64,000 nt of DNA, taken from positions 2,208,001 through 2,272,000 of the forward strand of contig OZ243927.1 in NCBI GenBank assembly GCA_965213925.1, written 5' to 3'. How positions within the stretch are numbered: the first letter of the stretch is position 1; every line of letters starts with the position of its first letter. The DNA comes from Trueperaceae bacterium (GTDB lineage Bacteria > Deinococcota > Deinococci > Deinococcales > Trueperaceae). The notes under the pieces are model-generated. The model was not told where the DNA came from. It saw only the letters and a list, made by a program, of their open reading frames with translations, and searched no databases. The position numbers and the translations under genes were made by a program. Positions 8,301 to 63,277 of the stretch are shown here, one piece after another.

Positions 8301-8415
8301 TATAGCAAGTATCATTTGGTTTGAGCCAATCCGAGAAGAGGGAACGCAGTCTAGCGCGCACGTTTGGAAATGATACTTGCGTGATTCAAGCTCAGTGCTT
8401 ATGTGAACTGCTATA
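8301..8415 (+). mobile_element. Repeat family 1 copy A, 115 bp MITE-like (TATAGCA...TGCTATA)
   Basis: Exact reverse complement of 18388-18502; internal 13-bp inverted repeat GCAAGTATCATTT/AAATGATACTTGC. Confidence 0.9.
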
Positions 8416-8520
8416 AAGCGTGCGAAACGTATGCAAGGCAAACGCCATTTTGTTCAACGTTGCTAGGAAGGCGCTCGCGGTGAGTGCGTCCCTAAAGTTT
8501 TGGTTCGTTCTCTATGGGTG

Positions 8521-8621
8521 ATACCGTTTCCGGTCAAATTACGATGCGAGTAGAAACAGCGACGGATGCCGTGGGTAACGCAGGGGTGCGAAAGTGTCTT
8601 GTAGTGGATCGGAATCCGTAT
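8521..8621. repeat. Repeat family 2 copy (ATACCGTTTCCG...CGGAATCCGTAT ends)
   Basis: Imperfect 12-bp terminal inverted repeats; body similar in reverse complement to 18612-18718. Confidence 0.8.
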
Positions 8622-10180
8622 TAGGACCAAATAGAGCGCATAGACCAGGCCTCAAAGCTCAGCAGCCTCGAGCCTCCTTCCACAAAAGGTTGTACTGACG
8701 CGCCGCCAGGATGCTCCTGATAGACCCTCGTCGTCAGGCAAAACCGCGCGTTGGCGTAGACCTCGGTAACGGAGTGGTCGATGAAGACGCGCAGCTCGAG
8801 CCTTTCTCCTGCCTCTAGCTTTAGTACACCTTCTTGCAGGTCAGTGGCTAGGTTCGCGCCGTCCAACTGAGCAAGCTTCCTACCTGCTGTCAGACGCCCT
8901 GTCGCCGGTGTATAAGTTATCCGCCTTTCGCCTTCAAGCGACAAGATACTTAAACCGCACTTTCCCTCAGTTACTTCGAAAGTAGCGCAAAGCTCGAGCT
9001 GTCTGCCTTGAAAGGATGCGAGGCGTTTGCTCCTCAATTCGCTCAGCTCCGGCGCTGGCGAAAGGCGTAGCGCGTTTCCTTTTAGGTCGATCAGGCGCGG
9101 CAGCGACATCACCCCAGACCACCCCGCGCGGCGCTGCGCGCGCTCGCTCCGCCCCTCCTGCAGCCAGCCCCACATCAAAACGCGCCCTCGGTCATCTCGC
9201 AGCGCTTGGGGCGCGTAGAAGGAAGCGCCGCCGTGATCGAGCGTTTGCACCCGCTCTATAGTAAACTTGCGTTTTTCACCGTGGGGATTAAATCGACCTA
9301 CGAGCGCAACCGTACCGCAAGTTTTGGGCGTTCCGTTATGTTTGAGGAGGCTGAGGAGTAAAACGTGCCGCTCGCCGAACGTGAGCAGTTGCGGGCACTC
9401 CCACACGTCCGCCCGGATGAGGTCTGCTTGAATGAGGTCTGTTTGAATGAGGCCGTTGTCTAAGTCTCGAGCCGTGAGCAGAGGTCCTAGATAACGCCAG
9501 TCGAGCAAATTATCCGAACGGTAGAGGAGTACCGTGCCGCCCACCCCGCGCAGCCCCGCCCCAACGAGCATGTACCAGGTGCCCTCAACGCGCCAGACGT
9601 TGGGGTCGCGAAAAGCGGTCAGCTCGAGCCCTGAAGGGGCGCTCAAGATGGGGTTCGCAGCGTGCTTCGTCCACCTCTTTAGGTCCGCCGACCCCAGCGC
9701 CGCGCAAATGCTCTGACTTTGCGCCACCTCTACGGGACGCCGCACGCCCGTGTAAAACAGCATCGGCTGCCCGCCGTCGTCCACCGCACAACCCGACCAG
9801 CACCCCTCTTCGTCCGCGCTACCGGGCGTCGGCGTGAGCGCGACATCCAGGTCACGCCAATGAACCAGGTCGCGGCTCACCGCGTGCCCCCAGTGGATAC
9901 CGCCCCAAGCGGCGGCCTTCGGGTTGAACTGATAGAAGAGGTGGTATTCGCCCCCCCAGTAGATGAGCCCGTTCGGGTCGTTCATCCACTTTGAGGGCGG
10001 CAAGAAGTGATAGCGCGGTCTATGAGGGTCGTGGGCGAAGGGGGCACGCATAAAGAGGGGTTCGTTGTGAGGTGGCACGTCAGATAGCTCCTTGAAGGGG
10101 TAGGGTCTTCGTGTCAAGGCTAAGGGTATCGTTTTTTGGCGGCTGGCCCGAGGTCTGTTCGCGAATGTCGCAACGGTCAC
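8621..10180 (-). CDS. Glycoside hydrolase family 32 (beta-fructofuranosidase/levanase-like)
   Basis: Catalytic motifs WMNDPNG, FRDP, WECP; true start may be the ATG at 10051. Confidence 0.93.
   Translation of the reverse strand: MTVATFANRPRASRQKTIPLALTRRPYPFKELSDVPPHNEPLFMRAPFAHDPHRPRYHFLPPSKWMNDPNGLIYWGGEYHLFYQFNPKAAAWGGIHWGHAVSRDLVHWRDLDVALTPTPGSADEEGCWSGCAVDDGGQPMLFYTGVRRPVEVAQSQSICAALGSADLKRWTKHAANPILSAPSGLELTAFRDPNVWRVEGTWYMLVGAGLRGVGGTVLLYRSDNLLDWRYLGPLLTARDLDNGLIQTDLIQADLIRADVWECPQLLTFGERHVLLLSLLKHNGTPKTCGTVALVGRFNPHGEKRKFTIERVQTLDHGGASFYAPQALRDDRGRVLMWGWLQEGRSERAQRRAGWSGVMSLPRLIDLKGNALRLSPAPELSELRSKRLASFQGRQLELCATFEVTEGKCGLSILSLEGERRITYTPATGRLTAGRKLAQLDGANLATDLQEGVLKLEAGERLELRVFIDHSVTEVYANARFCLTTRVYQEHPGGASVQPFVEGGSRLLSFEAWSMRSIWS
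9417..9452. repeat. In-frame 15-bp tandem repeat inside GH32 (LIQTD-LIQAD-LIRAD)
   Basis: ATGAGGTCTG(C/T)TTGA x2 plus partial third unit. Confidence 0.75.
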
Positions 10181-10269
10181 GTCTCAAAGTGGCTTCACGC
10201 TAACGCCGACGTTGACCGTGACCATGCGGCGTGATTCTCTCAACCGAATAACTCAGCCGATCACGACGT

Positions 10270-11208
10270 CTATCCTTTCACACCTGACGCCGCCACGCTC
10301 TCGATGAACCACCGTTGGAAGAGCAGATACACGACCAAGATGGGCAGCGTCGCCATCGACGCGAACGCCATGATGGAGCCCCAGTCAATGTCTTGCAAAT
10401 AGAGCTGTGTGATACCCACCGTCAAGGGGCGGTAGGTCTCGCCGCGCGTGGTCATGAGGGGCCACAAGTAGGCGCTCCAGATGCTCAGCGTGTGTAAAAT
10501 AGCGACCGTCGCAAAGGCAGGGCGGGCTAGGGGCACGACGATGCGCCAGTAGACGCCGAAAGGCGACGCGCCGTCCACGATGGCGGCCTCGTCGAACTCC
10601 TTGGGAATATCCAAAAAGAACTGGTAGAAGAGGAAGATCGAGAAGGGGTAGGCGATAAAGGGAATGATCTGCACCTGATACGAGTCGAGCCAGGTCTGCA
10701 CGACCTCGAGGCTTAGCCCGCCCCCTAAGTTGACCCAAGGTAGCTCATTCACCACCACGAGCATGGGAATACTGATAGCCTCCAAGGGCACAATGATGAG
10801 CGCGATCACCGCCGCCAGGACGAACGACCTACCGCCCCAGCGCAGACGTGAGAGCGCGTAGGCGATCATGCTGTTGATAAAAAGTCCCGTTCCGACCGTC
10901 ACCACGGTGATGAAGACCGAGTTAAACAAGTAGCGCAAGAAGGGCGTGCGCTCGAAGACGAAACCGTAGTTCTCCCAGGAGAAGCCGCGCGGCACGAAGG
11001 CGAGCACGACCGTCTGCAAGTCCTCGAAGATAAAGCGCTCAGGCTTAAAAGACGAGGCGAACATGAAGACGATGGGAAAGAGAAAGAAGAGCGCGAGCAC
11101 GCTCATGAAGGCGTAGTCGGCGATAGTGAGCCAGCGCCGCCGCGCCTTGCGGCTGACGCCGGGGCGCGGCGCGGTCTTCGTCGTAATCTGCTTCTGCTGG
11201 TCCATCAC
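10270..11208 (-). CDS. Carbohydrate ABC transporter permease (MalG-like)
   Basis: TM helices, EAAIVDGA EAA loop. Confidence 0.92.
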   Translation of the reverse strand: MMDQQKQITTKTAPRPGVSRKARRRWLTIADYAFMSVLALFFLFPIVFMFASSFKPERFIFEDLQTVVLAFVPRGFSWENYGFVFERTPFLRYLFNSVFITVVTVGTGLFINSMIAYALSRLRWGGRSFVLAAVIALIIVPLEAISIPMLVVVNELPWVNLGGGLSLEVVQTWLDSYQVQIIPFIAYPFSIFLFYQFFLDIPKEFDEAAIVDGASPFGVYWRIVVPLARPAFATVAILHTLSIWSAYLWPLMTTRGETYRPLTVGITQLYLQDIDWGSIMAFASMATLPILVVYLLFQRWFIESVAASGVKG

Positions 11209-12278
11209 ACGCCTCCTTCCGAGGGCAGGACGCGGCGCTGTACAAGTGCGATGACCAAAACAATCACGAAAAAGACGATGGTTACCGCCGAGCCGTAGCC
11301 GATTTGCTGCTGCCGAAAGCCCGTATCCACCGCATGGTAGATGATCGAGCGCGTCGCGTTCTGCGGCCCGCCCCGCGTCATCACGTCGATCTGGGTAAAA
11401 ACTCTAAACGCGAGAATCGTCGTGCTGATAAATACAAAGATCGTGGTATTGCGAAGCTGCGGCAGCGTCACGAAGCGGAAGCGCTGGGAGGCGTTCGCCC
11501 CGTCAATCCGCGCCGCCTCGTAGAGCACGAAGGGGATACCCTGGAGACCCGCTAAAAAGATGATCATCTGCAGTCCTACCGAGTGCCAGATAGACAAGAT
11601 CACGACCGCGATGAGCGCCGTGTCCGTCGAGATGAGCCAGGGGATACCGTCTACCGCGCCGAAGGTGATGACCCCTAGAAACTCGTTGATGAGCCCCTGG
11701 TCGGGGTTATAAAGAAAGGTCCAGACGATGGCGATAACCGCCATCGAGGTGACGATCGGCGTGAAGTAAGCCGTGCGGAAGACGTTGATGCCTCTAAGCC
11801 GTTGGTTGACTAAAAGCGCCAACGCGAGCGCCAAGCCGCCCTGCCCTGGCACGATCAAGATGACGAACAAGAAGGTGTTGACCAGTGAGCGCATGAAAAC
11901 TGGGTCTTTGGCGAGCACCGCGCGGGGCGCGCCGAAGAGGTCTACGGTGAACCACTCGCGGAAGCCCTCGTAACGTTCGCTGCCCCGCACGAGGCTGCGC
12001 ACGCGCGGGTAGACCGGGTCGCCTGCTTCGTCCCGCACAACCTCATCCGCATCGTCCCTTTCGGGCTCGAGCGTCAAGATGCTCAAGCTCAAGAGCCTGT
12101 CGTAGTTTTCAAAACCGATGAACTGCGTAGGCAGGGGCGAGATGAGACGCTTGTCGGTCAAGCTCCAATAGAAGCCTAGTGCCAGAGGTGTCGCGATAAA
12201 GAGGAGTGCGAGCAAAATAGCGGGCGAACTCATAGACCAAGCGGCGCGCACCTCGCGCTGGCGGCGGTTGAGAGCCAT
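11205..12278 (-). CDS. Carbohydrate ABC transporter permease (MalF-like)
   Basis: LAGLQGIP..LYEAARIDGA, FRFVTLPQL. Confidence 0.92.
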   Translation of the reverse strand: MALNRRQREVRAAWSMSSPAILLALLFIATPLALGFYWSLTDKRLISPLPTQFIGFENYDRLLSLSILTLEPERDDADEVVRDEAGDPVYPRVRSLVRGSERYEGFREWFTVDLFGAPRAVLAKDPVFMRSLVNTFLFVILIVPGQGGLALALALLVNQRLRGINVFRTAYFTPIVTSMAVIAIVWTFLYNPDQGLINEFLGVITFGAVDGIPWLISTDTALIAVVILSIWHSVGLQMIIFLAGLQGIPFVLYEAARIDGANASQRFRFVTLPQLRNTTIFVFISTTILAFRVFTQIDVMTRGGPQNATRSIIYHAVDTGFRQQQIGYGSAVTIVFFVIVLVIALVQRRVLPSEGGV

Positions 12279-12302
12279 AAAACCTCCTAAGAATTCAGTG
12301 GA

Positions 12303-12350
12303 CAGTAGTCAGAATTCGGCCGTGCTTCCTACCCTGAATTCCGACTACTG
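12303..12350 (-). other. Intercistronic stem-loop between the binding-protein and permease genes
   Basis: CAGTAGTCAGAATTCGG / CTGAATTCCGACTACTG 17-bp imperfect inverted repeat. Confidence 0.6.
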
Positions 12351-12411
12351 AATTCTATTTACCCGAGCCTAACGACCGCCCAACTGAGCAGCCATCATGT
12401 CGCCTTACGCC

Positions 12412-13686
12412 CTACTGCTCCGAAGGGGGCGGATAGCCGCTATTCGCCTCGATGTTCTGGTCGATCTGGTCTACAGCAGCGTCGAGTTCGCTCTGCGCGT
12501 CCGCGCCTTTAATAACGTTGTCCATCGCCGTATAAAAGGCTGAGGTGACAACAGGGTATGCGGGCGTCACCGGGCGGGGGAAGCCCAAGCCCTCTTCTAG
12601 CTGCTGGCGGATGACGTACATGTCGCCCCCTTCACTCCACAGCTCTTGCGAATCTAAAAGCGAAAGACGCGCGGGCATCGAGCCGAACTCGCTCGTCCAC
12701 TCGTCTATCTGCTCAGCTGCCAAGAGGTACTCCATGAGCGCCCACGCGCCCTCTTCGTTATCGCATTCGGCGCTCATCGCCCAGGCCCACGAGCCCATCC
12801 CCGTGAGGTGGCGTGCGCCGAAGTTCGGCAGCGTCATGATGACAAGGTCGTCGCCGAAGGCCTCGTGGTAGTCGTTATACATCCAGTTGACGAACCAGCC
12901 TAAACCCGCTTTCCCGTTGACGAACTCGAAGTTGTCGGTAGGCGTTAAGGTCGCGTAGCCCTGCTCGAAGAGCCCCTGCAGCCACTCCATCGCCTGGACC
13001 GATTCCTCGCCGTTTAGGACGCCCTCCGCACTCTCATACTCGGGGCGCTCGATGAGCCCGCCGCCCCACGACTGCAGCGCGGGCGAGAAGGCGTAGGTAT
13101 ACCACTCGCCCGCGCCGAAATTCATCTTGAGGTCGATGGCGTAGTCCGCCGAGTCCAAGTTCTGCACCGCCTCTAAATACTGGTTGAATTCGTCTAACGT
13201 CCAGGGGTCGTCGATACCCTCGGGGATACGCGCGCCAATCGCCTCTAAAACGGGGCGCGTGCTGACCAAGCCGATGCTCGTGTCCGAGGGGCCGATAGCG
13301 TAGAGGTTGCCGTCGTAAGTGCCTTGGTCGGTAATAGAGGGCAAGAAGTCGTCCATGTAGCCTTCGGGCAGATAGTCGTCTAAGGGCTCCAAAAAGCCCG
13401 CCCAGGCGTAGTTGTAGGCGTAGGGGCCGTCTAGGTCGAGCACACAAGGCAAGTTACCTGCGACCGCAGCGGCGTTCACGGCGTCGTTATAGCCGCTGCC
13501 CGAGACCGAACCACCCGGAATCTCGGTGATGACCGCTTCGTACTCGTCTTGCGACTCGTTGAAGCGCGCGATTTGCTCCTCGTAGATGGGCGAGGCGCTA
13601 GACGAGTGGAACCAGATGGTGACCTCTTCTTGCGCGAAGGCGAGCGCGAAAAGAGAGGCGAAAAGTAGTGTGAACAGTCGTTTCAT
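12412..13686 (-). CDS. Sugar ABC transporter substrate-binding protein
   Basis: Signal peptide, SBP_bac_1-type features, upstream of two permeases. Confidence 0.9.
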   Translation of the reverse strand: MKRLFTLLFASLFALAFAQEEVTIWFHSSSASPIYEEQIARFNESQDEYEAVITEIPGGSVSGSGYNDAVNAAAVAGNLPCVLDLDGPYAYNYAWAGFLEPLDDYLPEGYMDDFLPSITDQGTYDGNLYAIGPSDTSIGLVSTRPVLEAIGARIPEGIDDPWTLDEFNQYLEAVQNLDSADYAIDLKMNFGAGEWYTYAFSPALQSWGGGLIERPEYESAEGVLNGEESVQAMEWLQGLFEQGYATLTPTDNFEFVNGKAGLGWFVNWMYNDYHEAFGDDLVIMTLPNFGARHLTGMGSWAWAMSAECDNEEGAWALMEYLLAAEQIDEWTSEFGSMPARLSLLDSQELWSEGGDMYVIRQQLEEGLGFPRPVTPAYPVVTSAFYTAMDNVIKGADAQSELDAAVDQIDQNIEANSGYPPPSEQ

Positions 13687-13752
13687 GAACGTTCCTTTCA
13701 GGTAGCTTCGAAAGAGGTACGAGACTTTATGGATGAACCGTAGACCTCCTCT

Positions 13753-14745: not shown

Positions 14746-14757
14746 AGCGATCTCCAG

Positions 14758-14775
14758 TTTGGAATCGTTTCCAAA
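14758..14775. promoter_or_regulatory. LacI-family operator palindrome TTTGGAATCGTTTCCAAA
   Basis: Near-perfect palindrome with central CG, 12 nt upstream of the LacI gene start. Confidence 0.7.
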
Positions 14776-15016
14776 TCACTCTCAAAAACGAGCGGTTGTG
14801 AAACAGCAAGTTGTTTAAGACCCCTTTAAGCTAGCAGACACGTTTCAGTCTGTCAATGGAGCGTGTAAAACAGGTGGCGCAACGTCTACCGGGTCGCACT
14901 CGAAAAGGAGCGCAACTGGTGGTGTGAGGCTCGAGCTTCACGCAGAAACTTCGGCAGACCGGTTCTGCTTGATTTATACACCTCTTTGCATATACTATCA
15001 GTTCTTTGAGGCTCAA

Positions 15017-15095
15017 AGCAGGTATTATCTGGTCACAGAAGCCCTCGCTGGAAGAAGCGTCGGCTTCGCGCACGCGCTGAGGGATAATACTTGCG
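15017..15095 (+). repeat. Repeat family 1 copy B (partial, stem only)
   Basis: GCAGGTATTATC ... GATAATACTTGCG stem homologous to copy A; lies upstream of argF. Confidence 0.6.
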
Positions 15096-15142
15096 AAAAC
15101 GTAATGATATTGACGTAACGACTCGAGCCGGAAGGACTTCTA

Positions 15143-16093: not shown

Positions 16094-16095
16094 GC

Positions 16096-18324: not shown

Positions 18325-18572
18325 ATACGGATTCCGATTGATTCGCTATGTTAGCGAATCAATTCGAGCGCAGCGAGTAAGAAGAAATATAGCAGTTCAC
18401 ATAAGCACTGAGCTTGAATCACGCAAGTATCATTTCCAAACGTGCGCGCTAGACTGCGTTCCCTCTTCTCGGATTGGCTCAAACCAAATGATACTTGCTA
18501 TATACGGATGGAGCGGTGTGGACTGTCACCGAGGCTTTTTCTCGGTGATAGGGCACTAAGCGGGATCCGTAT
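18325..18572. repeat. Repeat family 2 copy carrying a nested family 1 insertion
   Basis: Ends ATACGGATTCCG / CGGGATCCGTAT; internal hairpins ATTGATTCGCTA-TGT-TAGCGAATCAAT and TCACCGAG...CTCGGTGA. Confidence 0.8.
18388..18502 (-). mobile_element. Repeat family 1 copy C, identical to copy A
   Basis: 115/115 reverse-complement match to 8301-8415; TA at both ends. Confidence 0.9.
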
Positions 18573-18611
18573 GACCTCTCGAAGAGGGTATGGAGCCCTC
18601 TCTAGCAGGTT

Positions 18612-18718
18612 ATATAGATTCCGGGTGAATCCACTGCAAAATGCATTCGCACCCCTGCGTTACTCACCGGCATCCGTCGCTGTTTCAACTCGCTATGCTC
18701 GTTTGCTGGAGCCCGCAT
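18612..18718. repeat. Repeat family 2 copy (diverged)
   Basis: TTCGCACCCCTGCGTTAC...GGCATCCGTCGCTGTTTC shared in reverse complement with 8521-8621; degenerate ends; abuts the TAA of the SorC gene. Confidence 0.75.
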
Positions 18719-19686
18719 TACGCTCGTAGCAACACCGCTCGCGCCGCCGCATCGTCCGTCACGAGCACATCCGTGTAGCCGCCGCGCAGGGCACCTAAAA
18801 TAGCTTGCGCTTTCCCCAAACCGCCCGCAACGGTGACGACTTCGCGCACGTCTCGCAGCGTCTCTAACCCGATCGTGATCGCCCGCTCGTTAAAGAGCGT
18901 GTCGGTGAGGGTTCCGTCTTCATCAAAGAACTGAGCGCACATGTGCCCGACTGCGCCGCTAGCGCTGAGGCGCTCCAAGTCCGCCTTACTCAAGTAGTCC
19001 GCAAAGATGAGCCCCGCCGCACTAGGCGTCAGAGGGCTCACGCCCATCAAAATCACGTCCGCTTGGCGGGCAATTTGTAAGAGGTCTTTGACGAGCGGCT
19101 CCTGTGTGAGTAGCGCGCGCGTCCGCGCGCTCTCGACCATCAAAGGCGCGTGGAGGTAGCGGTACGCCCCGCCGTAGAGGTTGGCGAGTTGCCGCGCCAA
19201 GTCGGGACCGTCTTGCAGAGGATTACCCGAGCCCAACGCGCCGATAACTTGAAGGACGACGATGTCGGCGAGGCTCTTAGACTTGACACGCTGCACGACG
19301 CTCGCCACCGAGCGCCCATACGAGACACCCACGATCATCCCGTCCGTAACGACCTCGTCTAAATAGCTCGCCGCGAGCTGCCCCATCCCGCCGATGACCT
19401 CACCCTCTGAACGTCCAAAACTGCGCAGCACGCGCGCTTCTTTGAGGTCGAAGTGCGCCTTGAGTTCTCGTTCCAGCAAGCTGTCCCTCGCCAGACTGTA
19501 GTCGATCGAAATCTGTACGACGCCGCGCGCTCTGGCTTCTTGTAAGAGCCTAGAGACCGTCGAGCGCGAGGTGCCGACCCGCCGCCCGATTTCGGCTTGG
19601 GTGCGACCCTCTTCGTAGTAGAGCATGGCGACCTCGATGAGGAGGGCTAAGTCGTTGGGGTTGGTTAAGGTGTCGGTCCGGGTCAT
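18718..19686 (-). CDS. SorC/DeoR-family sugar-binding transcriptional regulator
   Basis: LYYEEGRTQAEIG..SRSTVSRLLQEAR HTH; GVSYGRS, GAVGH, AGG..KA.AI.GAL.GG, LVTD. Confidence 0.92.
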   Translation of the reverse strand: MTRTDTLTNPNDLALLIEVAMLYYEEGRTQAEIGRRVGTSRSTVSRLLQEARARGVVQISIDYSLARDSLLERELKAHFDLKEARVLRSFGRSEGEVIGGMGQLAASYLDEVVTDGMIVGVSYGRSVASVVQRVKSKSLADIVVLQVIGALGSGNPLQDGPDLARQLANLYGGAYRYLHAPLMVESARTRALLTQEPLVKDLLQIARQADVILMGVSPLTPSAAGLIFADYLSKADLERLSASGAVGHMCAQFFDEDGTLTDTLFNERAITIGLETLRDVREVVTVAGGLGKAQAILGALRGGYTDVLVTDDAAARAVLLRA

Positions 19687-22601: not shown

Positions 22602-22887
22602 GATCACCGTTCTATTCATAAGGTCGTGGTTTCGGCAACCGCTACAAACTCTCGGCTGAGCCGTTTGGTCTAAGCCGGAAGACGCGGCGCGCGTGCAGCA
22701 GCCAACGTCACCACTGAGCTTGTACCGCGCGGACATCAGCTTCTGATGCGCGCGGGCGTCCTCTCAAGCGATAGCTCAAACCAGATCTTACTCGCCAGGG
22801 TGCTCTTTGCGCTCGTAATTTGCTCACGCTTAGCGGCGGGACGTTGCCGCTGAGCCGCGCAGCCCTACTCGTGGCGCAGCTAAACGC

Positions 22888-25994: not shown

Positions 25995-26586
25995 ATTTTT
26001 GTGCTTCCACTTGCGTCACCGCGTAGATGCGAGTGTCGCGCAAGGAGCCGTCTACGCCCCTCGAGTAGCGCCTCAAAACGCCCTCGAGCCCGTACCCGCA
26101 CCGCTCCGCGACTCGCGCGCTTCGCTCGTTTTCATCGTCGCACTGAATCTCGACCCTCGCCGCCCCGAAGTCCTCCAAAGCGAGTTTTGTCAGCGCACGA
26201 ACAGTCTCCGTCACGTAACCTTGTCCGGCTCTCGAAGTGCGGCACCAGTAGCCGATCTCGAACTTGGGTACCTTCCAGTCGATCCGGTGGAGGCCGCTGT
26301 TGCCGATATGCTCGCCCGTCTCCTTGTCGTGAAAGTGGTAGCGCAAGTTCTGACAGGTGATGAACTGGGCGACGGCGTCGCGGGTGTTCTCTTCGCAGCC
26401 TTCGCGCGAGTACACAGGCGTCGCCCAAGCCATCCAGGGTGAGAGTTCGCTGAGCGATTCGCGCACCGAGGTGTAGATCGCGTCCACGTCCTCCACGCGC
26501 GGTCGGCGGATGGTGAGGCGCTCGGTTTCTAAGCGTTCGGGCACTCGGGGAATCATCAGGCTACAAGTATAGGGTTTTTCGTTCAC
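25993..26586 (-). CDS. RimJ/RimL-type GNAT acetyltransferase
   Basis: LETERL.IR, FEIGYW, GQGYVTE, NERSARVAERCGY. Confidence 0.9.
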   Translation of the reverse strand: MNEKPYTCSLMIPRVPERLETERLTIRRPRVEDVDAIYTSVRESLSELSPWMAWATPVYSREGCEENTRDAVAQFITCQNLRYHFHDKETGEHIGNSGLHRIDWKVPKFEIGYWCRTSRAGQGYVTETVRALTKLALEDFGAARVEIQCDDENERSARVAERCGYGLEGVLRRYSRGVDGSLRDTRIYAVTQVEAQK

Positions 26587-26587
26587 A

Positions 26588-26718
26588 TAGCAGGTATCAT
26601 CTGGTCTGAGTGTACGTAGTTCTGCGAAGCAACACTCTCACTCTACAAAGCAGCGTTTAGCACGCACCTTATAAGATGATATCTGCGGCATTCTGTCTCA
26701 GTATGTTGTGGAACTGCT
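26588..26718 (+). mobile_element. Repeat family 1 copy D (diverged)
   Basis: TAGCAGGTATCATCT ... TTAGCACGCAC-N7-GATGATATCTGCG ... CTCAGT ... GAACTGCT. Confidence 0.8.
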
Positions 26719-26766
26719 TACATTCACACCCTTAGGGTTCATCTAGCGGTGGTAGAGTAGTCTCCT

Positions 26767-40877: not shown

Positions 40878-41000
40878 TAGCAAGTATACCCGCTGAAGCA
40901 GGGCACTTTCATCTGTTTACAAACGCTCTTGGTCAATACAGCAATGGCTAGCACGCACCCTAAAGGATGACATCCGCGTGACACAACCTCAGTGGTTATG
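40878..41000 (+). repeat. Repeat family 1 copy E (diverged)
   Basis: TAGCAAGTAT ... CTAGCACGCAC-N7-GATGACATCCGCGTGA ... CTCAGTGGTTATG. Confidence 0.7.
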
Positions 41001-41167
41001 CAAAACGTTCCAAAACCTAAGATACTGTTCTGCTTAAGAAAACAGCCTGAGCAAGCCCTGTCTTGCTAACGGTCTCGCAGACCCAGTAGAAAAGCGGGCT
41101 TTGCTCAGGTTCGCTTAGCTGAAGTCTAAACCCTATAAGACTTGAACTTCCTATACAAGAAACAAGG

Positions 41168-56233: not shown

Positions 56234-56347
56234 TTGCGGGCTCGAGAACAATCCACTCGCCGCCGGTTAGCTGACCGGGTTGCCGTACCCGAAGGGCTTC
56301 TCCCGAAGGTGTGCGGAGCATAACGAAGTAAGCTTGCGCGTCCGCTT

Positions 56348-56376
56348 CGCAGATATCATCCCCAAGTGTGCGGACT
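56348..56376 (-). repeat. Repeat family 1 fragment F (core motif only)
   Basis: Reverse complement TAGTCCGCAC-N6-GATGATATCTGCG. Confidence 0.45.
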
Positions 56377-56493
56377 ATGCTCTTCAAACTGAGCGCAACG
56401 CTCTGGTCACAAGCCAAGTCTAAAAGGCTCACACCGCTGACGCCCCCTCAACTCGGCCTTCCTAAACACCTACACGACCGTTTAGCAGCCAAT

Positions 56494-56527
56494 AAAAAAG
56501 CTCCACAGTTAGGCTGCGGAGCTTTTT
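56494..56527 (-). terminator. Intrinsic terminator of the Wzc-like gene
   Basis: AAAAAAGCTCC...GGAGCTTTTT hairpin flanked by A/T runs. Confidence 0.75.
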
Positions 56528-56541
56528 CGAATTTAGTAGGT

Positions 56542-58101
56542 TTAGCGGGCGACGGCGCGGTCTGAGATGGAGGGGTACTCGCCGGGCGCGTCTACGGCGT
56601 CGTAGTCGTAGCGCGACGTTCTGCGGTTCATGTTGACGTGCGTGGCGACGATGCCTAAGAGGTTGACGCGACTTCTGTTAAGGAGATCGACGGCGTCGTT
56701 GACCTCTTGCGGGTCGGTGTCTTGCAGGCTCGCTACGAGCACGGTGCCCGTGCAGAGCGGCGCGATGGTCAAGGTGTCGGCGACGTCTAAGATGGGCGCG
56801 GAGTCGATGATGATGACGTCGTAGTCCTTGCGCCAACTTTCCAGGCAGTCCTGGAACCCTAAGCTGAGAAGTTCGGTGGGCGAGGGCGCGGCGCGGAAGG
56901 TCGGAATGATGTCTAGGCGCTGCGTCAAGTTGACCGAGACGTGGGCGGCTTCGTAGGAGTCGTGGGGGTTTTCCAGGTGCGCCCGCAGCGGCATGTGGCG
57001 CTTGTCGTCGAGGTTATACTCCTTGGCGATAATGGGACGGCGTAAGTCGGCGTCGACCAAGAGGGTGCGGTAGTCCGCGCGGGTGAAGCTCTCGGCTAAG
57101 CTGAGCGCCACGCTCGACTTGCCTTCGCCCGTCTCCGGGCTCGTCACCAGGATCACTTTAGGCTCCGCTTCGGCGGTGGCGAAAAGCAAGTTCGTGCGCA
57201 AGTAGCCCGAGGCTTCGCGGGGGAGTCGCCGCGCCTTTTTAGGCAGCTTGGGGAATTCGCCGAGGATGGGCAGGCCCGTGGCGGTCTCCAGGTCGCTGGC
57301 GCTGCGCAGTCTCGTGTCGAGCATGTTGCGTAAGAGGAGCAGCGCGTAGCCGAGCAAGAAGCCGAACACCGCCGCGAAAGCCGCGAACAGAACGGGGCGA
57401 GGTGCGATGGGACTAACGGGTACGGAAGCTGCCTGGACGATGATGAGGCGGCTCGCCGCCGTGCCGATAAGCGATTCCGCCTCGACGAGGCGCTCTTGTA
57501 AGCTGCTCTGCAGGTTGCTGAGCCGCTCGATTTCGTTCGCGGGCGCGCCGCTCGCTTGTGCTTCGCTGATCCGCGTGCCGAGGTTCGCGATCTGCTGGTC
57601 GATAGCCTCGACGCTGTCCGCTAGGTAGGCGCGGGCGCGGTTCTCGTCCCAGTTGATGAGCGAGCGGGCGAGCGCGTTTGCTTGGGCTGCGGCCGCTTCA
57701 CCTGTACCGCTCTCGACGATCGTCGTCACCGAGCTTGACTCGCGCGTTTCCTGTACGGCGACGTTCATGCGCTTGCGCAGGTCCCCGATGTCACTCTGGG
57801 TGATATTCTCAACGCCTAAAATCGCGAGCGCGTCCTGAATGACGGTGTCGCTGAGCGCCGCGAGTCGGTAACCCGAGACGCTAATTGGCGGCGCGGTAAC
57901 TCTAGGGATGCCGAATGAACTCCCGCTGATGTCGCCTGTGGGAGCGAGCACCGTCGCGTTCGCTTCGTAAACGGCGTCGCTGCGACTGGTTAAATAATAG
58001 ACGGTGGCGGCACCTGCGCTCGCGAGCAGGAGAGCGAGAAGTAAGCCGCGCCCCAAGAAGCGGAAGAGTTCCCCTATGGTTATGTTGATATCTTGCTGCA
58101 T
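56542..58101 (-). CDS. Polysaccharide co-polymerase / bacterial tyrosine autokinase (Wzc/CpsCD-like)
   Basis: Two TM segments, coiled coil, P..P..P motif, LRTNL, TSPETGEGKS, DADLRRP, DSAP, C-terminal tyrosines. Confidence 0.9.
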   Translation of the reverse strand: MQQDINITIGELFRFLGRGLLLALLLASAGAATVYYLTSRSDAVYEANATVLAPTGDISGSSFGIPRVTAPPISVSGYRLAALSDTVIQDALAILGVENITQSDIGDLRKRMNVAVQETRESSSVTTIVESGTGEAAAAQANALARSLINWDENRARAYLADSVEAIDQQIANLGTRISEAQASGAPANEIERLSNLQSSLQERLVEAESLIGTAASRLIIVQAASVPVSPIAPRPVLFAAFAAVFGFLLGYALLLLRNMLDTRLRSASDLETATGLPILGEFPKLPKKARRLPREASGYLRTNLLFATAEAEPKVILVTSPETGEGKSSVALSLAESFTRADYRTLLVDADLRRPIIAKEYNLDDKRHMPLRAHLENPHDSYEAAHVSVNLTQRLDIIPTFRAAPSPTELLSLGFQDCLESWRKDYDVIIIDSAPILDVADTLTIAPLCTGTVLVASLQDTDPQEVNDAVDLLNRSRVNLLGIVATHVNMNRRTSRYDYDAVDAPGEYPSISDRAVAR

Positions 58102-58245
58102 CTTTCACCTCAGTGGCGATCACGCCGTCGGCGCGTGATTCCTAAGTTATCTATCTATACCTGTTTAATGTGAGTGTTTCATCACCGCTGCTGACGTTGC
58201 CCGACGTTGTTATTCTGAACTGCGCCTATCCAGATGACCTACCGT

Positions 58246-58283
58246 TGTTCCAGAACCATTCAATTGTTCCAGAACCATTCAAT
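58246..58283. repeat. Perfect 19-bp tandem duplication
   Basis: TGTTCCAGAACCATTCAAT x2 upstream of the Wzc-like gene. Confidence 0.85.
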
Positions 58284-58455
58284 GTGAATCATCGCGGTTT
58301 TCGAAGCCCCTTAAAAAGCTCTCTAAAGCGTACTTTAGCAGATTCAAAGGCGGGGATAGCGGTACACCTCACACGCCGCGGTGCTCACCAAAAGTTCACA
58401 ATTAGGAGTAGGTCGGAGATAGGCTGCGCCGACGCGGACGCTTTCACCGCAGTAA

Positions 58456-58602
58456 CAGCAGTCCACGACATACTGAGACAAAGTGTCGCAGATATCATCA
58501 CTGAATGTACGTGGTAGACATCGCTTTATACGGTGAGCTTTATACGGTGAGAGTGTTTCAAATCAGCTCCGAACGCAGTAAGACAGACTTTGATACCTGC
58601 TG
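58456..58602 (-). mobile_element. Repeat family 1 copy G (with internal 14-bp duplication)
   Basis: Reverse complement AGCAGGTATCAAAGTCTGTCT ... GATGATATCTGCG ... TGTCTCAGTATGT ... ACTGCT; GCTTTATACGGTGA x2 at 58523-58550. Confidence 0.8.
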
Positions 58603-58621
58603 AAATAAGCGAACAAGGTGC

Positions 58622-59602
58622 TTAGCGTCCGAGGTGCCCGGTTTGCGACTCGAGCCACCCCCGCAGTTCTTGGGCTACCGCTCCGAATTCCACTTCGTCC
58701 TCGAAAGGATAGAGTTTCGCCCCTGGCTCCTTGCGAAACCACGTACGCTGGCGTTTGGCGTAGCGCGTTGTAGCGAGCGTCACAGCTTGCTCAGCCTCTC
58801 GTAAGGTGCAGCGACCTTCTAAGTAGGTAGTGACCTCTTTGTAGCCGATCGCTTGCGTGGCGGTCGGGCGCGCGGGATAGCAGTCCAGAAGGTCGCGCAC
58901 CTCTTCGGCAAGCCCGGCGCGGAACATGCGCTCCGTCCTGAGCGCGATGCGTTCGCCGAGTGCCTGGGCGTCGGGGAGTAAGATCGCTTTGTCGTAGCGA
59001 AAACGGGGCGTCGTATTGGCAAAGTTGCTGGGCGCGCGTCCGGTTCGCCGAAAGATTTCTAACGCGCGCACCACGCGGCGCGGATTTCTCTGCGCCCGCG
59101 CCGCGTCCTCCGGGCTAAGCGTTTGCAGTTCGTCCACAAGTCTCTCCAAGCCCTCACGCTCTAAACGCTTCCACAGTTCAGCCTGCACCTCCGCGTCGGC
59201 AGGAGGGACGGTGGGCAGACCTTCGGACAAGGCGCGTATGTAGAAGCCCGTCCCGCCTACAATCAGAGGGAGCTTGCCGCGCTCTAAAACATCGGCGATG
59301 ACCGTTTCTGCGTGCTTGACGTAATCCGCGACGCTAAAAGGTTCGTTCGGGTCTACGATGTCGATGAGGTGATGCGGCACGCCGCGCCGCTCGGCTAGCG
59401 TAGGTTTCGCCGTGCCGATGTCCATACCTCTATACACCATCATCGCGTCGGCGGAAACGACCTCGACCGGTGCGTTCTGGGCGAGCCGGAGCGCAAGGTC
59501 GCTCTTACCCGACGCAGTCGGACCTGCGAGGACGGGAACGGTGAGGTTGGGCACAGTGAGGTTGGGCACAGTGAGGTTGAGCACAGTGAGGTTGGGGGTC
59601 AT
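58622..59602 (-). CDS. miaA: tRNA dimethylallyltransferase
   Basis: GPTASGKS, DAMMVYRGMDIGTAKP, VGGTGFY, QAIGYKE, YAKRQRTWF. Confidence 0.96.
   Translation of the reverse strand: MTPNLTVLNLTVPNLTVPNLTVPVLAGPTASGKSDLALRLAQNAPVEVVSADAMMVYRGMDIGTAKPTLAERRGVPHHLIDIVDPNEPFSVADYVKHAETVIADVLERGKLPLIVGGTGFYIRALSEGLPTVPPADAEVQAELWKRLEREGLERLVDELQTLSPEDAARAQRNPRRVVRALEIFRRTGRAPSNFANTTPRFRYDKAILLPDAQALGERIALRTERMFRAGLAEEVRDLLDCYPARPTATQAIGYKEVTTYLEGRCTLREAEQAVTLATTRYAKRQRTWFRKEPGAKLYPFEDEVEFGAVAQELRGWLESQTGHLGR
59538..59597. repeat. 15-bp tandem repeat x4 at the miaA 5' end (TVPNL units)
   Basis: GTGAGGTTG(G/A)GCACA repeated. Confidence 0.9.
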
Positions 59603-59767
59603 CTCTTTTTACTCTATCGTGGCGGTGAGCGCGTAGGCGTTGCGGGGGAGGGTAGCGGAACGGGGGAATAGCGAAAAAGCCACCTCTTCTTACTTCCCTC
59701 TTTAACCCCGCGAACCGATATGTAAGCGCAACAAGCAGGCTGCGAGGCGCGTGCTAAACTCGCGGAC

Positions 59768-60163
59768 ATGGAGCCTGATAAGATGGAGCTTGACAAAAGC
59801 CACACCACGAGTAGCGATTTGCAGCACCTCCTCACCCTGCGCGAGCGCGTCGGCGAGCTGGTCAGTGAGCTAGAGGACGAAGCCACGATCAAAGTAGACC
59901 TCTTAGAGTTGGAGGACGCCTACCGTCTGGTCGCAGACCTCCCTGGTATCGCCCAAGATGACCTGGAGATTTCTATACAGGGGCGGTCCCTTACGATCGC
60001 CGGCGTCGTCCCGCCACGCGACGCCGACGCGCACCTTCTCGTCGGTGAGCGCGCTAGCGGATACCTCCAGCGCACCCTCGAGCTACCCGGAGAGGTCGCC
60101 GAAACGAAGAGCAACGCGCATTTAAGTCACGGCTTGCTCGTGCTGCATCTGCCTAAGCGCTGA
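59768..60163 (+). CDS. Hsp20/alpha-crystallin family small heat-shock protein
   Basis: ADLPG, LTIAG, ER.SG...R...LP, GLLVLHLPK. Confidence 0.85.
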   Translation: MEPDKMELDKSHTTSSDLQHLLTLRERVGELVSELEDEATIKVDLLELEDAYRLVADLPGIAQDDLEISIQGRSLTIAGVVPPRDADAHLLVGERASGYLQRTLELPGEVAETKSNAHLSHGLLVLHLPKR

Positions 60164-60171
60164 TCTGGTCC

Positions 60172-61140
60172 ATGACTGCCGGTCTCTACGCGCCTTTCCC
60201 GGTCGAGGTTCCCTACCGAACCGGACCTGTCATGAAGAGGTTGGGAGGAGTTGAGGGCGATTCGGGCGGTCTTTTCGTTGTGGACGAGGCGTACGGGCGC
60301 TACCTCGAGCAAAAACTCTCCCGCCTCGCTAGCCAGCCCGAACGCTACGGCGGTCTTTCGGTAGGACCGCACGGGGGTCTGGGCGACGCCCTTCTACACG
60401 TCTTTAGTCTTCTCGCGCGGGAACAGCCGAACTTACTGACGTTAGAGGCTGGAACGGTCCGGCTCGAGGCGTTGGGGCTCAGGCTCGAGCGAAATCAGCA
60501 GGATCACTGGAGAGTCGAAGCCATTCCTGATACCGACACACCTCTCGCGGCGTTGGGGCGGCGCGTCCAAGCTCACCTAGAAGCCCAATTTGATCTCACA
60601 GTCCTTATTCACGCACTCGCGCTGAGTCTCCAAGAGGACTTCGTCATCCTGCGAGACTTAGACGGCGAGGACGAGGCGGAGTGTCTCTGCGTAGTCTTTC
60701 CGAGCGACTGGAACCCGCAGGAGAAAGTCGGACAGAATTTTTCAGAGCTGCACAAACCTGTTGCGAATAACACCGCTCTGCTGAGGTCACACCGCCCGGT
60801 CATGAACGCGCTCTTTCACAAGGGACCGTTCGTGCGCTTCGTGTGGGGCTTGAGCGCGGACGGGCGTCTGGGGCAGCATCCGGCAGAGACACCTCGAGCC
60901 GTCACATGCTCGCCCGCTGCCCTCTTCTTCCGCACCGAGCGGCAAGTTAGTGTGCCGTTACCCGGCGGACGCTGCCTCTTCACTGTTCGCGTCGCGGTGC
61001 AACCGCTCAGCGACGCACTCTGCAACGAAGAACGGCGGCAGAGATTTGCTGCCGCGCTCGCATCTATGGATGACGAACTGTTGGCTTACAAGGGGCTGAG
61101 CGCGTGGCGTGACCCCTTGCTCGCTTTTTTGAGCGGCTGA
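60172..61140 (+). CDS. DUF3445 / heme-dependent oxidative N-demethylase alpha-subunit-like protein
   Basis: LQEDF, FPSDWNP.EK.G, LHKPV, RFVWG, RTERQ, FTVRV, YKG. Confidence 0.8.
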   Translation: MTAGLYAPFPVEVPYRTGPVMKRLGGVEGDSGGLFVVDEAYGRYLEQKLSRLASQPERYGGLSVGPHGGLGDALLHVFSLLAREQPNLLTLEAGTVRLEALGLRLERNQQDHWRVEAIPDTDTPLAALGRRVQAHLEAQFDLTVLIHALALSLQEDFVILRDLDGEDEAECLCVVFPSDWNPQEKVGQNFSELHKPVANNTALLRSHRPVMNALFHKGPFVRFVWGLSADGRLGQHPAETPRAVTCSPAALFFRTERQVSVPLPGGRCLFTVRVAVQPLSDALCNEERRQRFAAALASMDDELLAYKGLSAWRDPLLAFLSG

Positions 61141-61145
61141 GGGAA

Positions 61146-62108
61146 TTAGAAAGCGTCGTCCGGGTCCTCGAGCGGGTCGTCTGCGCCGATACCGTTCTCG
61201 TCGTCGTCCTCGTTACCGTCCTCGCCCAAATCTTCGCCCAGGTCCTCGCCGATATCCTGAGAGCCGCCCGTTACACCCGGCGCGCCGACATCGAGCGGCT
61301 GGGGCTCGGCGTCGCCCAAGTCGATGTCCAAAGACGCCCGCACGCTGCCCTCGCCGCGCACCACCACGTCGTTGCTGTCGAGGTCGTATTCGATGAGTTC
61401 GCCCGAGACCACGCCCTCTTCGTTGCGGCTCGTGGCGGGGCTGCCCGTGAGCACCGCGAAACCTGTTTCTTCGTCTAACTCGAGCCGCTCCGAGCGGCTG
61501 GTGCGCCCGTCCGACGCGACTTCGACGTTTCCTTGCAAGGTGGTGAGGTCGCTATCCACATTGAAGGCGAGGTCTCTCGAGCTGGCGGTCAAGGCAGGCG
61601 AGTCGCCCTCTTCGACTCGTTCCAAGTTGATGGGTCCGTCCATGTCACCGATGCCCGTCGCGTTGTTGTAAAAGAACGTTCTGCCCGTCGTCGTCGTGCG
61701 CCCTTCCGTTACCGTGATCGTCTCTTCGGTGCGTTGAACGTTCGTCGGACAGAGTGTCGCAGGGTCGAGTTCTAAGGAGCCGTCAAATAGCTCTAGCGTC
61801 TCTTCGTCTTCCGCCTCGTCGGGACGTCTGAGGAGCGCGACCGTCGAGACGATGCGGGTGTCGTTGACCACCGTCTCGACGAAGCCGGGCGGCGGCGCGT
61901 AGACGACGCCCAGACTCTGACCCTCCTCGCAGCCTGGGTTGCTCGGGATAAACTCCGCGCCCTGATCGCTCCTGCCGTTTTGAACGACGCGAATCTCGGT
62001 GTCGTTGCGGTCTATCGTGAGCTGGGAGCGCGTCAAGGGCGCGTCCTGGGCGAGCGCTAAGCCCAGAAGTCCGACGAAAAAGACCGAAAGACGGGTGTTC
62101 GCGCTCAT
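61146..62108 (-). CDS. LptA/OstA-like beta-jellyroll protein
   Basis: Signal peptide, beta-strand-rich, LQGNVEV, LTGSPA, GELIEYDL; acidic tail. Confidence 0.7.
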   Translation of the reverse strand: MSANTRLSVFFVGLLGLALAQDAPLTRSQLTIDRNDTEIRVVQNGRSDQGAEFIPSNPGCEEGQSLGVVYAPPPGFVETVVNDTRIVSTVALLRRPDEAEDEETLELFDGSLELDPATLCPTNVQRTEETITVTEGRTTTTGRTFFYNNATGIGDMDGPINLERVEEGDSPALTASSRDLAFNVDSDLTTLQGNVEVASDGRTSRSERLELDEETGFAVLTGSPATSRNEEGVVSGELIEYDLDSNDVVVRGEGSVRASLDIDLGDAEPQPLDVGAPGVTGGSQDIGEDLGEDLGEDGNEDDDENGIGADDPLEDPDDAF

Positions 62109-62113
62109 CTCTT

Positions 62114-63127
62114 TTAGCTCCCTTCGTTCGTCAGGCTGAACTGCGCGGGGTCGAACTCCGCCGGGACGGTCTCGTCTAAGACGCGCACGACGTCTAGGTC
62201 GGTACGCTGCTCGAGCCGCGCTCCCGTCAGCGTCACGCCTTGCGCCTCGTTGACCGAGGTGGCGGGCGAGCCGATGACCTCGGCGCGGGAGGCCTCGTCG
62301 TTGAAATATACCGTGTCGCCCGTGCTGGTGATGTCGCCGTCCACGATGGTCACGTTGCCCGTCGCTAGGAGCGTGTCGTCGGCGGTGTTCGTGCGGATGA
62401 CGTCGGCGGTGATGGTCAAGACGCCGTCTTCGCTCTCACGGCGGGCGGTGACCTGCTCGCCTTCGCTCGAGAGCCTCGCCAAATCGCGTCCCTCTTCGAA
62501 GGTCAGCTCCTGCGCCTGAGCGCTCTGGTTGCCGTTTGTAAGCGTCACGTCGCCCCGGCTGACGCTCGTATCCGTGTCTACGTCGAAAGTGACTTCGTTC
62601 GCGCTGATATTTACAGGTGCACTATCTTCTTCGGGACCCTCTTCGGCAGGCGTCACCACGATGTCCGTGTTCGACGGCATCACGCCTAAACCCGTCGATT
62701 CGCTGTAGACGAGGTCGGGTCCGGTCGCCGTCAGGCGACCTCTCTCCACGCGCACGCCGCCCGTGAATTCCGCCTCGCGCTGCCCTTCAGCTTGCGCGAT
62801 GAGCACCTCTTCGGGCGCGCTGAGCTGGGCATTTTGCGCGTAAATCGTGAGGTTCGAGACCGTCGCGACGAGCCCTTCGGGGTCGGGGTGCGTGTAGACC
62901 AGGGGACCGTAGCGCAAGCTCTCGCTGCGCTGCGAGCCGCCGCTAAAGTCGATGTTGATGATGCGCTCCTCGGCGGCTTCGCGGGCGTCGTCCTGGGCGT
63001 TCTCTTCGTCGGTCTCTTCCTGTTCGGGGTTCGTGGGTTGGGTCTCGCCCTGTCCCGTATCTTGCGCAAGGACGAAGAGGCTTGTGATGAGAAGGAAGAG
63101 TAAAGTTGTGCGTAATGCTTTAAGCAT
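62114..63127 (-). CDS. LptA/OstA-like beta-jellyroll protein
   Basis: Signal peptide, FTGGVRV, ATGNVTI, GDTVYFN, IGSPA; ATG at 63127 with AAGGAG. Confidence 0.72.
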   Translation of the reverse strand: MLKALRTTLLFLLITSLFVLAQDTGQGETQPTNPEQEETDEENAQDDAREAAEERIINIDFSGGSQRSESLRYGPLVYTHPDPEGLVATVSNLTIYAQNAQLSAPEEVLIAQAEGQREAEFTGGVRVERGRLTATGPDLVYSESTGLGVMPSNTDIVVTPAEEGPEEDSAPVNISANEVTFDVDTDTSVSRGDVTLTNGNQSAQAQELTFEEGRDLARLSSEGEQVTARRESEDGVLTITADVIRTNTADDTLLATGNVTIVDGDITSTGDTVYFNDEASRAEVIGSPATSVNEAQGVTLTGARLEQRTDLDVVRVLDETVPAEFDPAQFSLTNEGS

Positions 63128-63141
63128 GGCGGGCTCCTTGG

Positions 63142-63277
63142 ATAGCATAATGTTTGAGGTCCTGATTTTGTATCACGCAAGCATCATCTGTGGATGTGCG
63201 TGCTAAGGAATGACTTGTCTTCTGATTGCGTTTGTGACCAGCTCCGAGCTTTGCGAGACAGACTTTGATACCTGCTA
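63142..63277 (-). mobile_element. Repeat family 1 copy H
   Basis: Reverse complement TAGCAGGTATCAAAGTCTGTCT ... TTAGCACGCAC-N7-GATGATGCTTGCGTGA ... TGCTAT; 21-bp exact match with copy G. Confidence 0.8.

What the first reader, a model, noticed from the sequence alone, without database searches (positions are those of the whole stretch)
8301..63277. Dispersed structured repeat family (8 copies in 64 kb) with a covarying stem and fixed-spacing core motif
Seen: related intergenic elements at 8301-8415(+), 15017-15095(+), 18388-18502(-), 26588-26718(+), 40878-41000(+), 56348-56376(-, fragment), 58456-58602(-) and 63142-63277(-). Full copies begin (T)AGCA(A/G)GTAT, have a variable middle, then a (C/T)TAGCACGCAC-like motif, N7, (G/A)ATGAT..TGCG, and most finish with CTCAGT...TGCT(A). 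The 5' end pairs with the GATGAT..TGC segment: perfectly in A/C, with a compensatory change in B (TATT/AATA), and with G-U wobbles on the same strand in B, D, G and H. The 7-nt spacer differs in each distinct copy but keeps its length in A/C, D, E, G, H. Inference: a non-autonomous element (TA-flanked ends resemble IS630/Tc1-mariner insertion) whose fold is selected as RNA or ssDNA, possibly an unannotated structured RNA or a substrate for a mobilising enzyme encoded elsewhere. I do not recognise it as a known family and no transposase is in the window.
Basis: partly seen in the sequence, partly recalled or inferred. Interest (0 to 1): 0.82.

Follow-up and report, generated by a model that had tools for sequence, protein, structure and literature searches.

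The report
Mini-transposon with hairpin hosting tinier inserts
This is a 111-base non-coding DNA element, repeated about 210 times in one bacterium, whose right end matches a resident IS630 transposon that likely moves it; it also keeps an inner hairpin that likely folds on one strand only, and carries even smaller 21-24-base inserts whose mover is unknown.

Summary
All eight copies are real, and a ninth lies at 22697-22791. The family has 213 loci on the chromosome (probably a Trueperaceae). It is a 111-bp element between TA duplications. Its consensus right end matches the end of a resident 1-kb IS630 (22/28), and sister genomes show empty sites, so it is most likely an IS630-driven MITE of the RUP type.

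It is not wholly ordinary. A 12-bp inner arm pairs with the left end at a fixed 76-bp span across six genera while loop and right end are replaced. Compensatory changes exceed the control (14 vs 4.0). The G-U bias is real (55:19) but comes from three adjacent pairs only, copy E contradicts it, and the 'core motif' is genus-specific. RNA versus ssDNA is unresolved; no RNA data were available.

The 'variable middle' is mostly 21-24-nt site-specific, nesting inserts (109 in about 84 loci). One class has only C-GNA-G loops, a DNA mini-hairpin signature. They resemble the SDR elements of Nostocaceae; their mover was not found. This scan noted both the MITE and the inserts earlier on other DNA of this genome.

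The parts
8301..8415 (+). Copy A, full young copy: TA + 111 bp + TA; left arm 8305-8316, inner arm 8369-8380
   Evidence: 6 exact copies on the chromosome, 10 in its 90% cluster
15015..15095 (+). Copy B, old copy without a right end, lying between a promoter-like site (14969-14996) and argF; arms 15018-15029 and 15083-15094
   Evidence: orthologous copy with stem kept in G002, absent in G001; RNA fold z -4.65 on + strand, -3.39 on - strand
18388..18502 (-). Copy C, identical to A; its two flanks are contiguous with a 2-bp gap in G002
22697..22791 (-).
26586..26720 (+). Copy D, full copy; right end 22/28 identical to the resident IS630 end
26611..26631 (+). 21-nt insert (class a, two C-GNA-G mini-hairpins) inside D, at the inner block of the left end
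40878..41007 (+). Copy E, decayed; stem has three A-C mismatches
40887..40908 (+). 22-nt insert (class d) in the left arm of E
56346..56396 (-). Copy F, fragment (loop, core motif and inner arm)
58454..58604 (-). Copy G, full copy with an insert and a 14-nt tandem duplication
58569..58591 (-). 23-nt insert (class c) in the left arm of G
63142..63279 (-). Copy H, right end decayed; the site lacks the element in G002
63244..63266 (-). 23-nt insert (class c) in the left arm of H

Best explanation
The repeats are a 111-bp non-coding element flanked by TA, whose right end matches a resident IS630 and which is likely cut and pasted in trans by IS630 transposases; its left end likely pairs, when the + strand is single-stranded, with a 12-bp inner arm that may be the right end of an older 84-bp element. 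Shown: copy number, TA ends, two-block terminal repeats, end match, empty sites, conservation and covariation of the stem, and site-specific 21-24-nt inserts that differ between orthologous copies. Inferred: transposition in trans; switching between IS630 drivers by changing the right end and the inner block of the left end together; single-strand folding of the stem; independent mobility of the inserts, likely through single-stranded DNA.
For: Ends: both read TAGCAG-N13-TGAG(A/C)C. A single-copy 997-bp IS630 at C1:1889065-1890061 (NF033545, 123 bits, cut-off 100) has an end 22/28 identical to the consensus right end; best copy 25/28, null 99th percentile 18; 36 of 44 ungapped cluster representatives match it best, and one 6-copy subfamily matches a second IS630 best (22/28). 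27 of 33 young copies have TA on both sides. Nine empty sites in 2.49 Mb of sister DNA, three with exactly one TA. Left and right inner blocks change together (3.79 of 6 vs 3.01+-0.14 permuted, 43 distinct pairs). Stem: same-branch double changes 14 vs 4.0+-1.8; G-U-making 55 vs A-C-making 19 with symmetric rates in loop columns. Columns 75-77 vary as often as the loop but 59 of 67 changes are transitions vs 626 of 1129. Consensus fold forms on the + strand only. Span of 76 bp in 172 of 339 distinct hits. Short palindromic forms in G018, L211, L332. Inserts.
Against: The consensus left end matches the IS630 end at only 13/28, and no autonomous element with that left end was found. The youngest subfamily (A/C) matches at only 18/28, the null's 99th percentile, so its driver is unidentified. 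G079 has a young family but no IS630 over the cut-off. Six of nine empty sites lack an exact TA. Without columns 75-77 the G-U bias vanishes (23:18; 18:19). No single pair is convincing, and some off-helix pairs score as well. Copies in co-directional gaps lie antisense more often than sense (80:50, p=0.011), which does not favour selection for a fold in host mRNA. Copy A does not fold better than shuffles on + (z -0.63).
Confidence: 0.72

Rival explanations
1. Same MITE, but the inner arm is a second double-stranded binding site (for a transposase or host protein) in inverted orientation at a fixed span; no single-strand fold is selected.
For: Nine of the 12 inner-arm columns are nearly invariant in either direction (5 events per site vs 22 in the loop). 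The terminal inner blocks also covary, presumably for double-strand reasons. The 76-bp span is fixed across genera. Mild antisense excess.
Against: Three arm columns are free in sequence yet almost confined to wobble-compatible transitions. Left-arm C>T (G-U) 9 vs G>A (A-C) 1. Terminal pairs show no G-U bias (21:28).
Confidence: 0.2
2. The stem is a relic of older terminal repeats, kept complementary by arm-to-arm templated copying and by conversion among 200 copies, with no selection on it.
For: Short palindromic forms exist, and in two G018 copies the symmetry runs 1-2 bases beyond the TA position. In flank-defined orthologues the stem is only modestly more conserved than the loop (18-21% vs 28% differences).
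Against: Templated copying should erase wobble pairs, yet they are the commonest variants. The arm sequence is kept across six genera while the loop is fully replaced.
Confidence: 0.15
3. A functional structured RNA family (own transcript or cis-regulatory element) spread by the transposon ends.
For: + strand wobble bias; sense copies G-U 23: A-C 2 vs antisense 26: 9 (small numbers). Copy B sits behind a promoter-like site before argF, folds with z -4.65, and keeps its stem in G002.
Against: Only one helix is supported. The loop and core motif are not conserved across genera. No Rfam match. Antisense excess. Many sites are species-specific.
Confidence: 0.12
4. The 21-24-nt inserts are not mobile by themselves but spread by gene conversion among MITE copies.
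For: Classes a, c and d lie almost only in MITE copies (15 of 17, 12 of 12, 9 of 11).
Against: The same class occurs in reverse orientation at the matching site of the other arm or end, with different variants in the two arms of one copy. Inserts nest inside each other. Class e lies mostly outside the MITE (18 of 96 inside), and similar units interrupt dead IS630 copies.
Confidence: 0.2

Closest known systems
RUP (repeat unit of pneumococcus, 107 bp), attributed to IS630-Spn1 (passages of PMC2229807 and PMC3049150)
   Same: About 110 bp, over 100 intergenic copies, TA target, terminal repeats like those of a resident IS630, mobility in trans inferred not shown.
   Different: RUP folds with its two terminal repeats paired to each other (PMC3049150). 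Here the left end pairs with an inner arm 35 bp short of the right end, the two ends share only two blocks, and the element hosts nested inserts.
ISY100 (IS630/Tc1/mariner; passages of PMC2170065, PMC6400869)
   Same: About 1 kb, imperfect repeats of about 24 bp bound by the transposase, TA duplication (34 of 39 insertions). This is the mechanism assumed for the resident IS630.
   Different: ISY100 has one reading frame; the resident element has two frames joined by a +1 shift at an A7 run, as in the multi-copy relative in G022. ISY100 needs only its ends, so it gives no role for the inner arm.
Small dispersed repeats (SDR1-8) of Nostocaceae (Elhai et al. 2008; paper not held; seen only through citing passages in PMC4390886 and PMC5861425, the rest recalled)
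   Same: Precise insertion at a short target (SDR5 in HIP1, passage). From recall: 21-27 nt, nesting, residence in mini-transposons, small hairpins with compensatory changes.
   Different: Host is Deinococcota, whereas the passage reports none outside Nostocaceae among HIP1-rich cyanobacteria. Targets are MITE arms. Class a loops are all GNA, which points to DNA rather than the RNA intermediate I recall being proposed. Sequence homology to SDR1-8 was not tested.
bcr1 of Bacillus cereus group (passage of PMC3184786)
   Same: Dispersed repeat with compensatory changes maintaining a fold.
   Different: bcr1 is about 155 bp with 5-bp direct repeats, a cruciform-like fold and shown transcription.

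Membership tests
IS630-dependent MITE (RUP type) | Short, multi-copy, non-coding, intergenic | tested here: met
   111 bp; 213 loci; 219 of 221 hits outside ORFs by my own simple gene caller
IS630-dependent MITE (RUP type) | Terminal inverted repeats | tested here: met
   Two-block imperfect repeat with equal spacing at both ends; terminal 6 pairs Watson-Crick in 297 of 370 cells; middle 13 positions not complementary
IS630-dependent MITE (RUP type) | Ends resemble those of a resident IS630 | tested here: met
   Right end 22/28 (consensus), up to 25/28; left end only 13/28
IS630-dependent MITE (RUP type) | TA target duplication | tested here: met
   27 of 33 young copies TA..TA; 3 of 9 empty sites hold exactly one TA, the others a gap of -1 to 2 bp with other letters
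IS630-dependent MITE (RUP type) | Mobilised in trans by the transposase | not testable with these tools
   Needs a transposition assay
SDR-like micro-elements (the inserts) | 21-27 nt units (recalled) | tested here: met
   69 of 109 inserts are 21-24 nt, 20 are 42-48 nt
SDR-like micro-elements (the inserts) | Precise insertion at a short target; nesting | tested here: met
   Five hotspot zones; class a always before AC(A/G)C in the 20 contexts listed; nested up to 113 nt
SDR-like micro-elements (the inserts) | Small hairpins with compensatory changes (recalled) | tested here: met
   Class a inner pair Watson-Crick 42 of 42 (two types), outer 24 of 42; class e 81 of 89 perfect 3-bp stems of 7 types
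SDR-like micro-elements (the inserts) | Sequence or structural homology to SDR1-8 | not testable with these tools
   Paper not held; no SDR sequences obtained
Known Rfam RNA family | Match above gathering score | tested here: not met
   0 matches in the window; best E 1.3 around copy A
REP/REPIN with RAYT | Y1 (HUH) transposase in the genome | tested here: not met
   PF01797 not found in G000, 97% complete

The most novel reading that the evidence does not exclude
The MITE is the main landing pad of an undescribed single-stranded-DNA mobility system in Trueperaceae: 21-24-nt modules built from GNA mini-hairpins insert at fixed sites in the folded MITE strand, and the stem kept across six genera is part of what that machinery, or a single-strand step in the MITE's own cycle, recognises. 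This would extend SDR-type elements beyond Nostocaceae and point to DNA rather than RNA as their intermediate.
Probability: 0.3. Interest if true: 0.82.

Novelty: new variant of a known kind. Interest (0 to 1): 0.52.

Why it matters
As a MITE alone this is a new member of a familiar class. Two things lift it. First, an inner arm stays paired to the left end across genera while the right end is exchanged, apparently to fit different IS630 transposases; cut-and-paste does not call for such a stem. Second, the element collects over a hundred ultra-small, site-specific inserts with filled and empty states in sister species. How 21-27-nt elements move has, to my knowledge, stayed open since the Nostoc SDR paper. 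Defined targets, several classes, a GNA-loop signature and a patchy distribution within one family make that question testable.

Tried and rejected
Rfam: nothing. Plasmid and phage collections: no match. Protein-pattern scan of named genomes with the transposase: no relative confirmed. An autonomous element bearing the MITE's left end: not found among 30 IS630 loci of the family, 19 loci from five carrier genomes or 130 metagenome and viral loci (two held transposase pieces, and the motif did not run into a transposase start in the stretches printed). Inversion between the inverted twins A and C: suggested by gene order in G002, rejected because both flanks of C are contiguous in G002. Pseudoknot between the inner blocks of the ends: not supported on the + strand (G-U 45: A-C 173); read as ordinary end symmetry. 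Further helices: none. Movers for the inserts: no Y1 transposase; four group II intron RT copies and three IS110-type matches exist, but I found no sequence or position link for the introns and did not examine the IS110 ends. Fold-back origin of the short palindromic form: only 6 of 339 hits extend 3 or more bases, too few. Expression: no RNA holder listed. Laying two DNA runs showed no clean joint skipping A or C; one contig replaced the B region with 35 other letters. The orthologue test weakened from 10-14% vs 34% (15 profile-detected pairs) to 18-21% vs 28% (31 flank-defined pairs, some probably false). No covariance model was built and R-scape was not available; covariation was tested with my own tree-based counts, on short alignments whose trees are poorly resolved.
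Full report
1. Observation. All eight stretches are in the window as described. A profile built from A, D and G and refined on the genome finds 221 hits at E<0.01 on the 4.58-Mb contig C1, none on the five small contigs, and none in a shuffled plus a reversed chromosome. They merge into 213 loci. A ninth, decayed copy lies at 22697-22791(-), and F extends to 56346-56396. With my own simple gene caller, 219 of 221 hits are outside ORFs. Named records carrying the left-end pattern are Trueperaceae MAGs (7 of 7 listed), so the host is probably of that family (inference). A two-arm pattern occurs in 11 of 301 genomes of the phylum: the window's genome, 10 of 102 others of its family (six genera in all) and 0 of 198 from four other families.

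2. Ends and driver. Clean copies are 115 nt counting a TA at each side. Both ends read TAGCAG, 13 bases, then TGAG(A/C)C. The 13 bases between the blocks are not complementary between ends. The chromosome holds a single-copy 997-bp IS630 (C1:1889065-1890061; NF033545 123 bits, cut-off 100). Its two frames are joined by a +1 shift at an A7 run, as in a multi-copy relative in G022, so it may be intact (inference). Its end matches the consensus right end of the repeat at 22 of 28 positions but the left end at only 13. Of 44 ungapped cluster representatives, 36 match this element best among 11 IS630 elements compared (median 20, best 25; null 99th percentile 18). One 6-copy subfamily matches a second, decayed IS630 best (22/28). 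The youngest subfamily, A/C, reaches only 18. Left and right inner blocks change together (mean 3.79 of 6 over 43 distinct pairs; permuted 3.01+-0.14), as expected if lineages switch drivers. Of 33 young copies, 27 have TA at both sides. In 2.49 Mb of the two sister genomes I found nine tight empty sites: three hold exactly one TA, the other six have gaps of -1 to 2 bp with other letters. ISY100 transposase binds 24-bp ends and duplicates TA (passages, PMC2170065); RUP is the textbook IS630-dependent MITE (passages, PMC2229807, PMC3049150).

3. The stem. Columns 5-16 pair with columns 69-80, 35 bp short of the right end. Over 183 clusters and 13 pairs, 1484 of 1815 cells are Watson-Crick, 182 G-U and 46 A-C; the terminal pairs give 21: 28. 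On a tree of 93 copies (90 of 183 dropped for arm inserts or gaps), G-U-making changes number 55 and A-C-making 19, while loop columns have symmetric rates. Same-branch double changes number 14 against 4.0+-1.8 for re-paired columns. With sister copies (111 representatives of 356 loci) compensatory events occur at 6 of 12 pairs, but some off-helix pairs score as well, and no second helix appears. The wobble bias sits in three adjacent pairs: without columns 75-77 it is 23: 18. Those columns change as often as the loop (22 events per site) yet 59 of 67 changes are transitions, against 626 of 1129 in the loop; the other nine columns are nearly fixed. This pattern fits a helix that must pair on the + strand and is also read by sequence; a duplex site with three tolerant positions is not excluded. 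Across genera the arms and the 76-bp span persist (172 of 339 distinct hits) while loop, 'core motif' and right end are replaced. Short palindromic forms ending at the inner arm exist, so the arm may be an older right end.

4. RNA or DNA. Copies in co-directional gaps lie antisense 80: sense 50 (p=0.011). Sense copies show G-U 23: A-C 2, antisense 26: 9, too few to separate. Single-copy folds are mostly unremarkable (A z -0.63; D -1.35; E, G, H near 0), except B (z -4.65). B lies behind a promoter-like site before argF and keeps its stem in G002. Orthologous copies differ less in stem than loop, strongly in 15 profile-detected pairs, modestly in 31 flank-defined pairs. No RNA run was listed, so expression is untested.

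5. The variable middle. Aligning each locus to a clean copy gave 144 insertion rows. After removing duplicates, 109 inserts of 17 nt or more fall in five hotspot zones in about 84 loci; 69 are 21-24 nt and 20 are 42-48 nt. D, E, G and H each carry one. They form five or six classes by eye, each with its own site. The same class appears reversed at the matching site of the other arm or end, and classes nest. Orthologous copies differ by a single insert at C1:1158351 (exact) and, less cleanly, at 3250438, 3565223, 1520997 and 3101364. In class a both hairpins have C-GNA-G loops: 42 of 42 and 45 of 45 with the loop left free in the pattern, though these counts include many copies of few variants. 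Only GNA loops form the very stable DNA mini-hairpin, and a corresponding RNA hairpin is much weaker (passages, PMC13037366). Class e stems covary (81 of 89 perfect, 7 types, all closed by C-G) but only 13 of 29 distinct loops are GNA on either strand. Class a occurs in 5 of 128 family genomes. No mover was found.

6. Comparison. The carrier meets four of five testable or stated features of an IS630-dependent MITE; mobilisation in trans is untested. It differs from RUP in pairing its left end with an inner arm. The inserts work like the SDR elements of Nostocaceae. That paper is not held; I saw two citing passages (PMC4390886, PMC5861425) and recall the rest, so membership is not claimed. Six literature searches (listings only) showed no description of this family; the library lacks most subscription papers, ISfinder was not available, and no supplements were read. 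Other papers seen as passages only: PMC3184786, PMC6400869. Earlier notes of this scan on the same genome reach the same two readings; I had recorded mine before looking, and they are not independent support.

7. Verdict. A real family and most likely an IS630-driven MITE (about 0.85 for that part), with a conserved inner stem that likely folds on one strand (about 0.6) and a load of SDR-like inserts that are likely mobile (about 0.7). New variant of a known kind; interest 0.52.

Noticed in passing
window 8610 (-) and 18326 (+); C's flanks 18330-18387 and 18503-18720: A second repeat family with the end motif TACGGATTCCG (63 exact matches on the chromosome), the same motif that ends another IS630 near C1:3220525. 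C's flanks also have 18-26 BLAST matches on the chromosome, so C sits inside repeated DNA.
   Followed up: partly
window 6702-8247: Two overlapping ORFs in different frames; the second matches only the C-terminal half of ribosomal-protection-like ABC-F models, below cut-off. It may be a split gene.
   Followed up: no
G000 C1:291528, 2670406, 3431155, 3475943: Four near-identical group II intron copies with an RT gene, one truncated at the 5' end.
   Followed up: partly
G000 C1:2769400, 3177673, 3490848: Three decayed IS630 copies interrupted by short hairpin units like the inserts in the MITE.
   Followed up: no
L160, L177 (G018), L211, L332: Short forms that end right after the inner arm as near-perfect palindromes, about 84 bp where unexpanded; possible ancestral or fold-back forms.
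   Followed up: partly
L167, L174, L183 (G079): A young 104-bp version with the same stem and span but a different loop and a shorter right end (72 pattern matches, some counted on both strands), in a genome with no IS630 over the cut-off.
   Followed up: partly
L059, L064 (G001) and L060 (G002): G001 has different copies in the same intergenic gaps as D and H (opposite orientation at H). G002 has a short hairpin at the D site whose arms differ from the consensus by two compensatory changes.
   Followed up: partly
G000 C1:16608-16707 (-): An old copy with a compensated stem directly upstream of a short gene whose start I recall as ribosomal protein L36.
   Followed up: no
model column 74, genome-wide: 45 of 221 aligned hits have G or A instead of T where class b inserts; some lack an insert and may be scars of gain and loss.
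   Followed up: no
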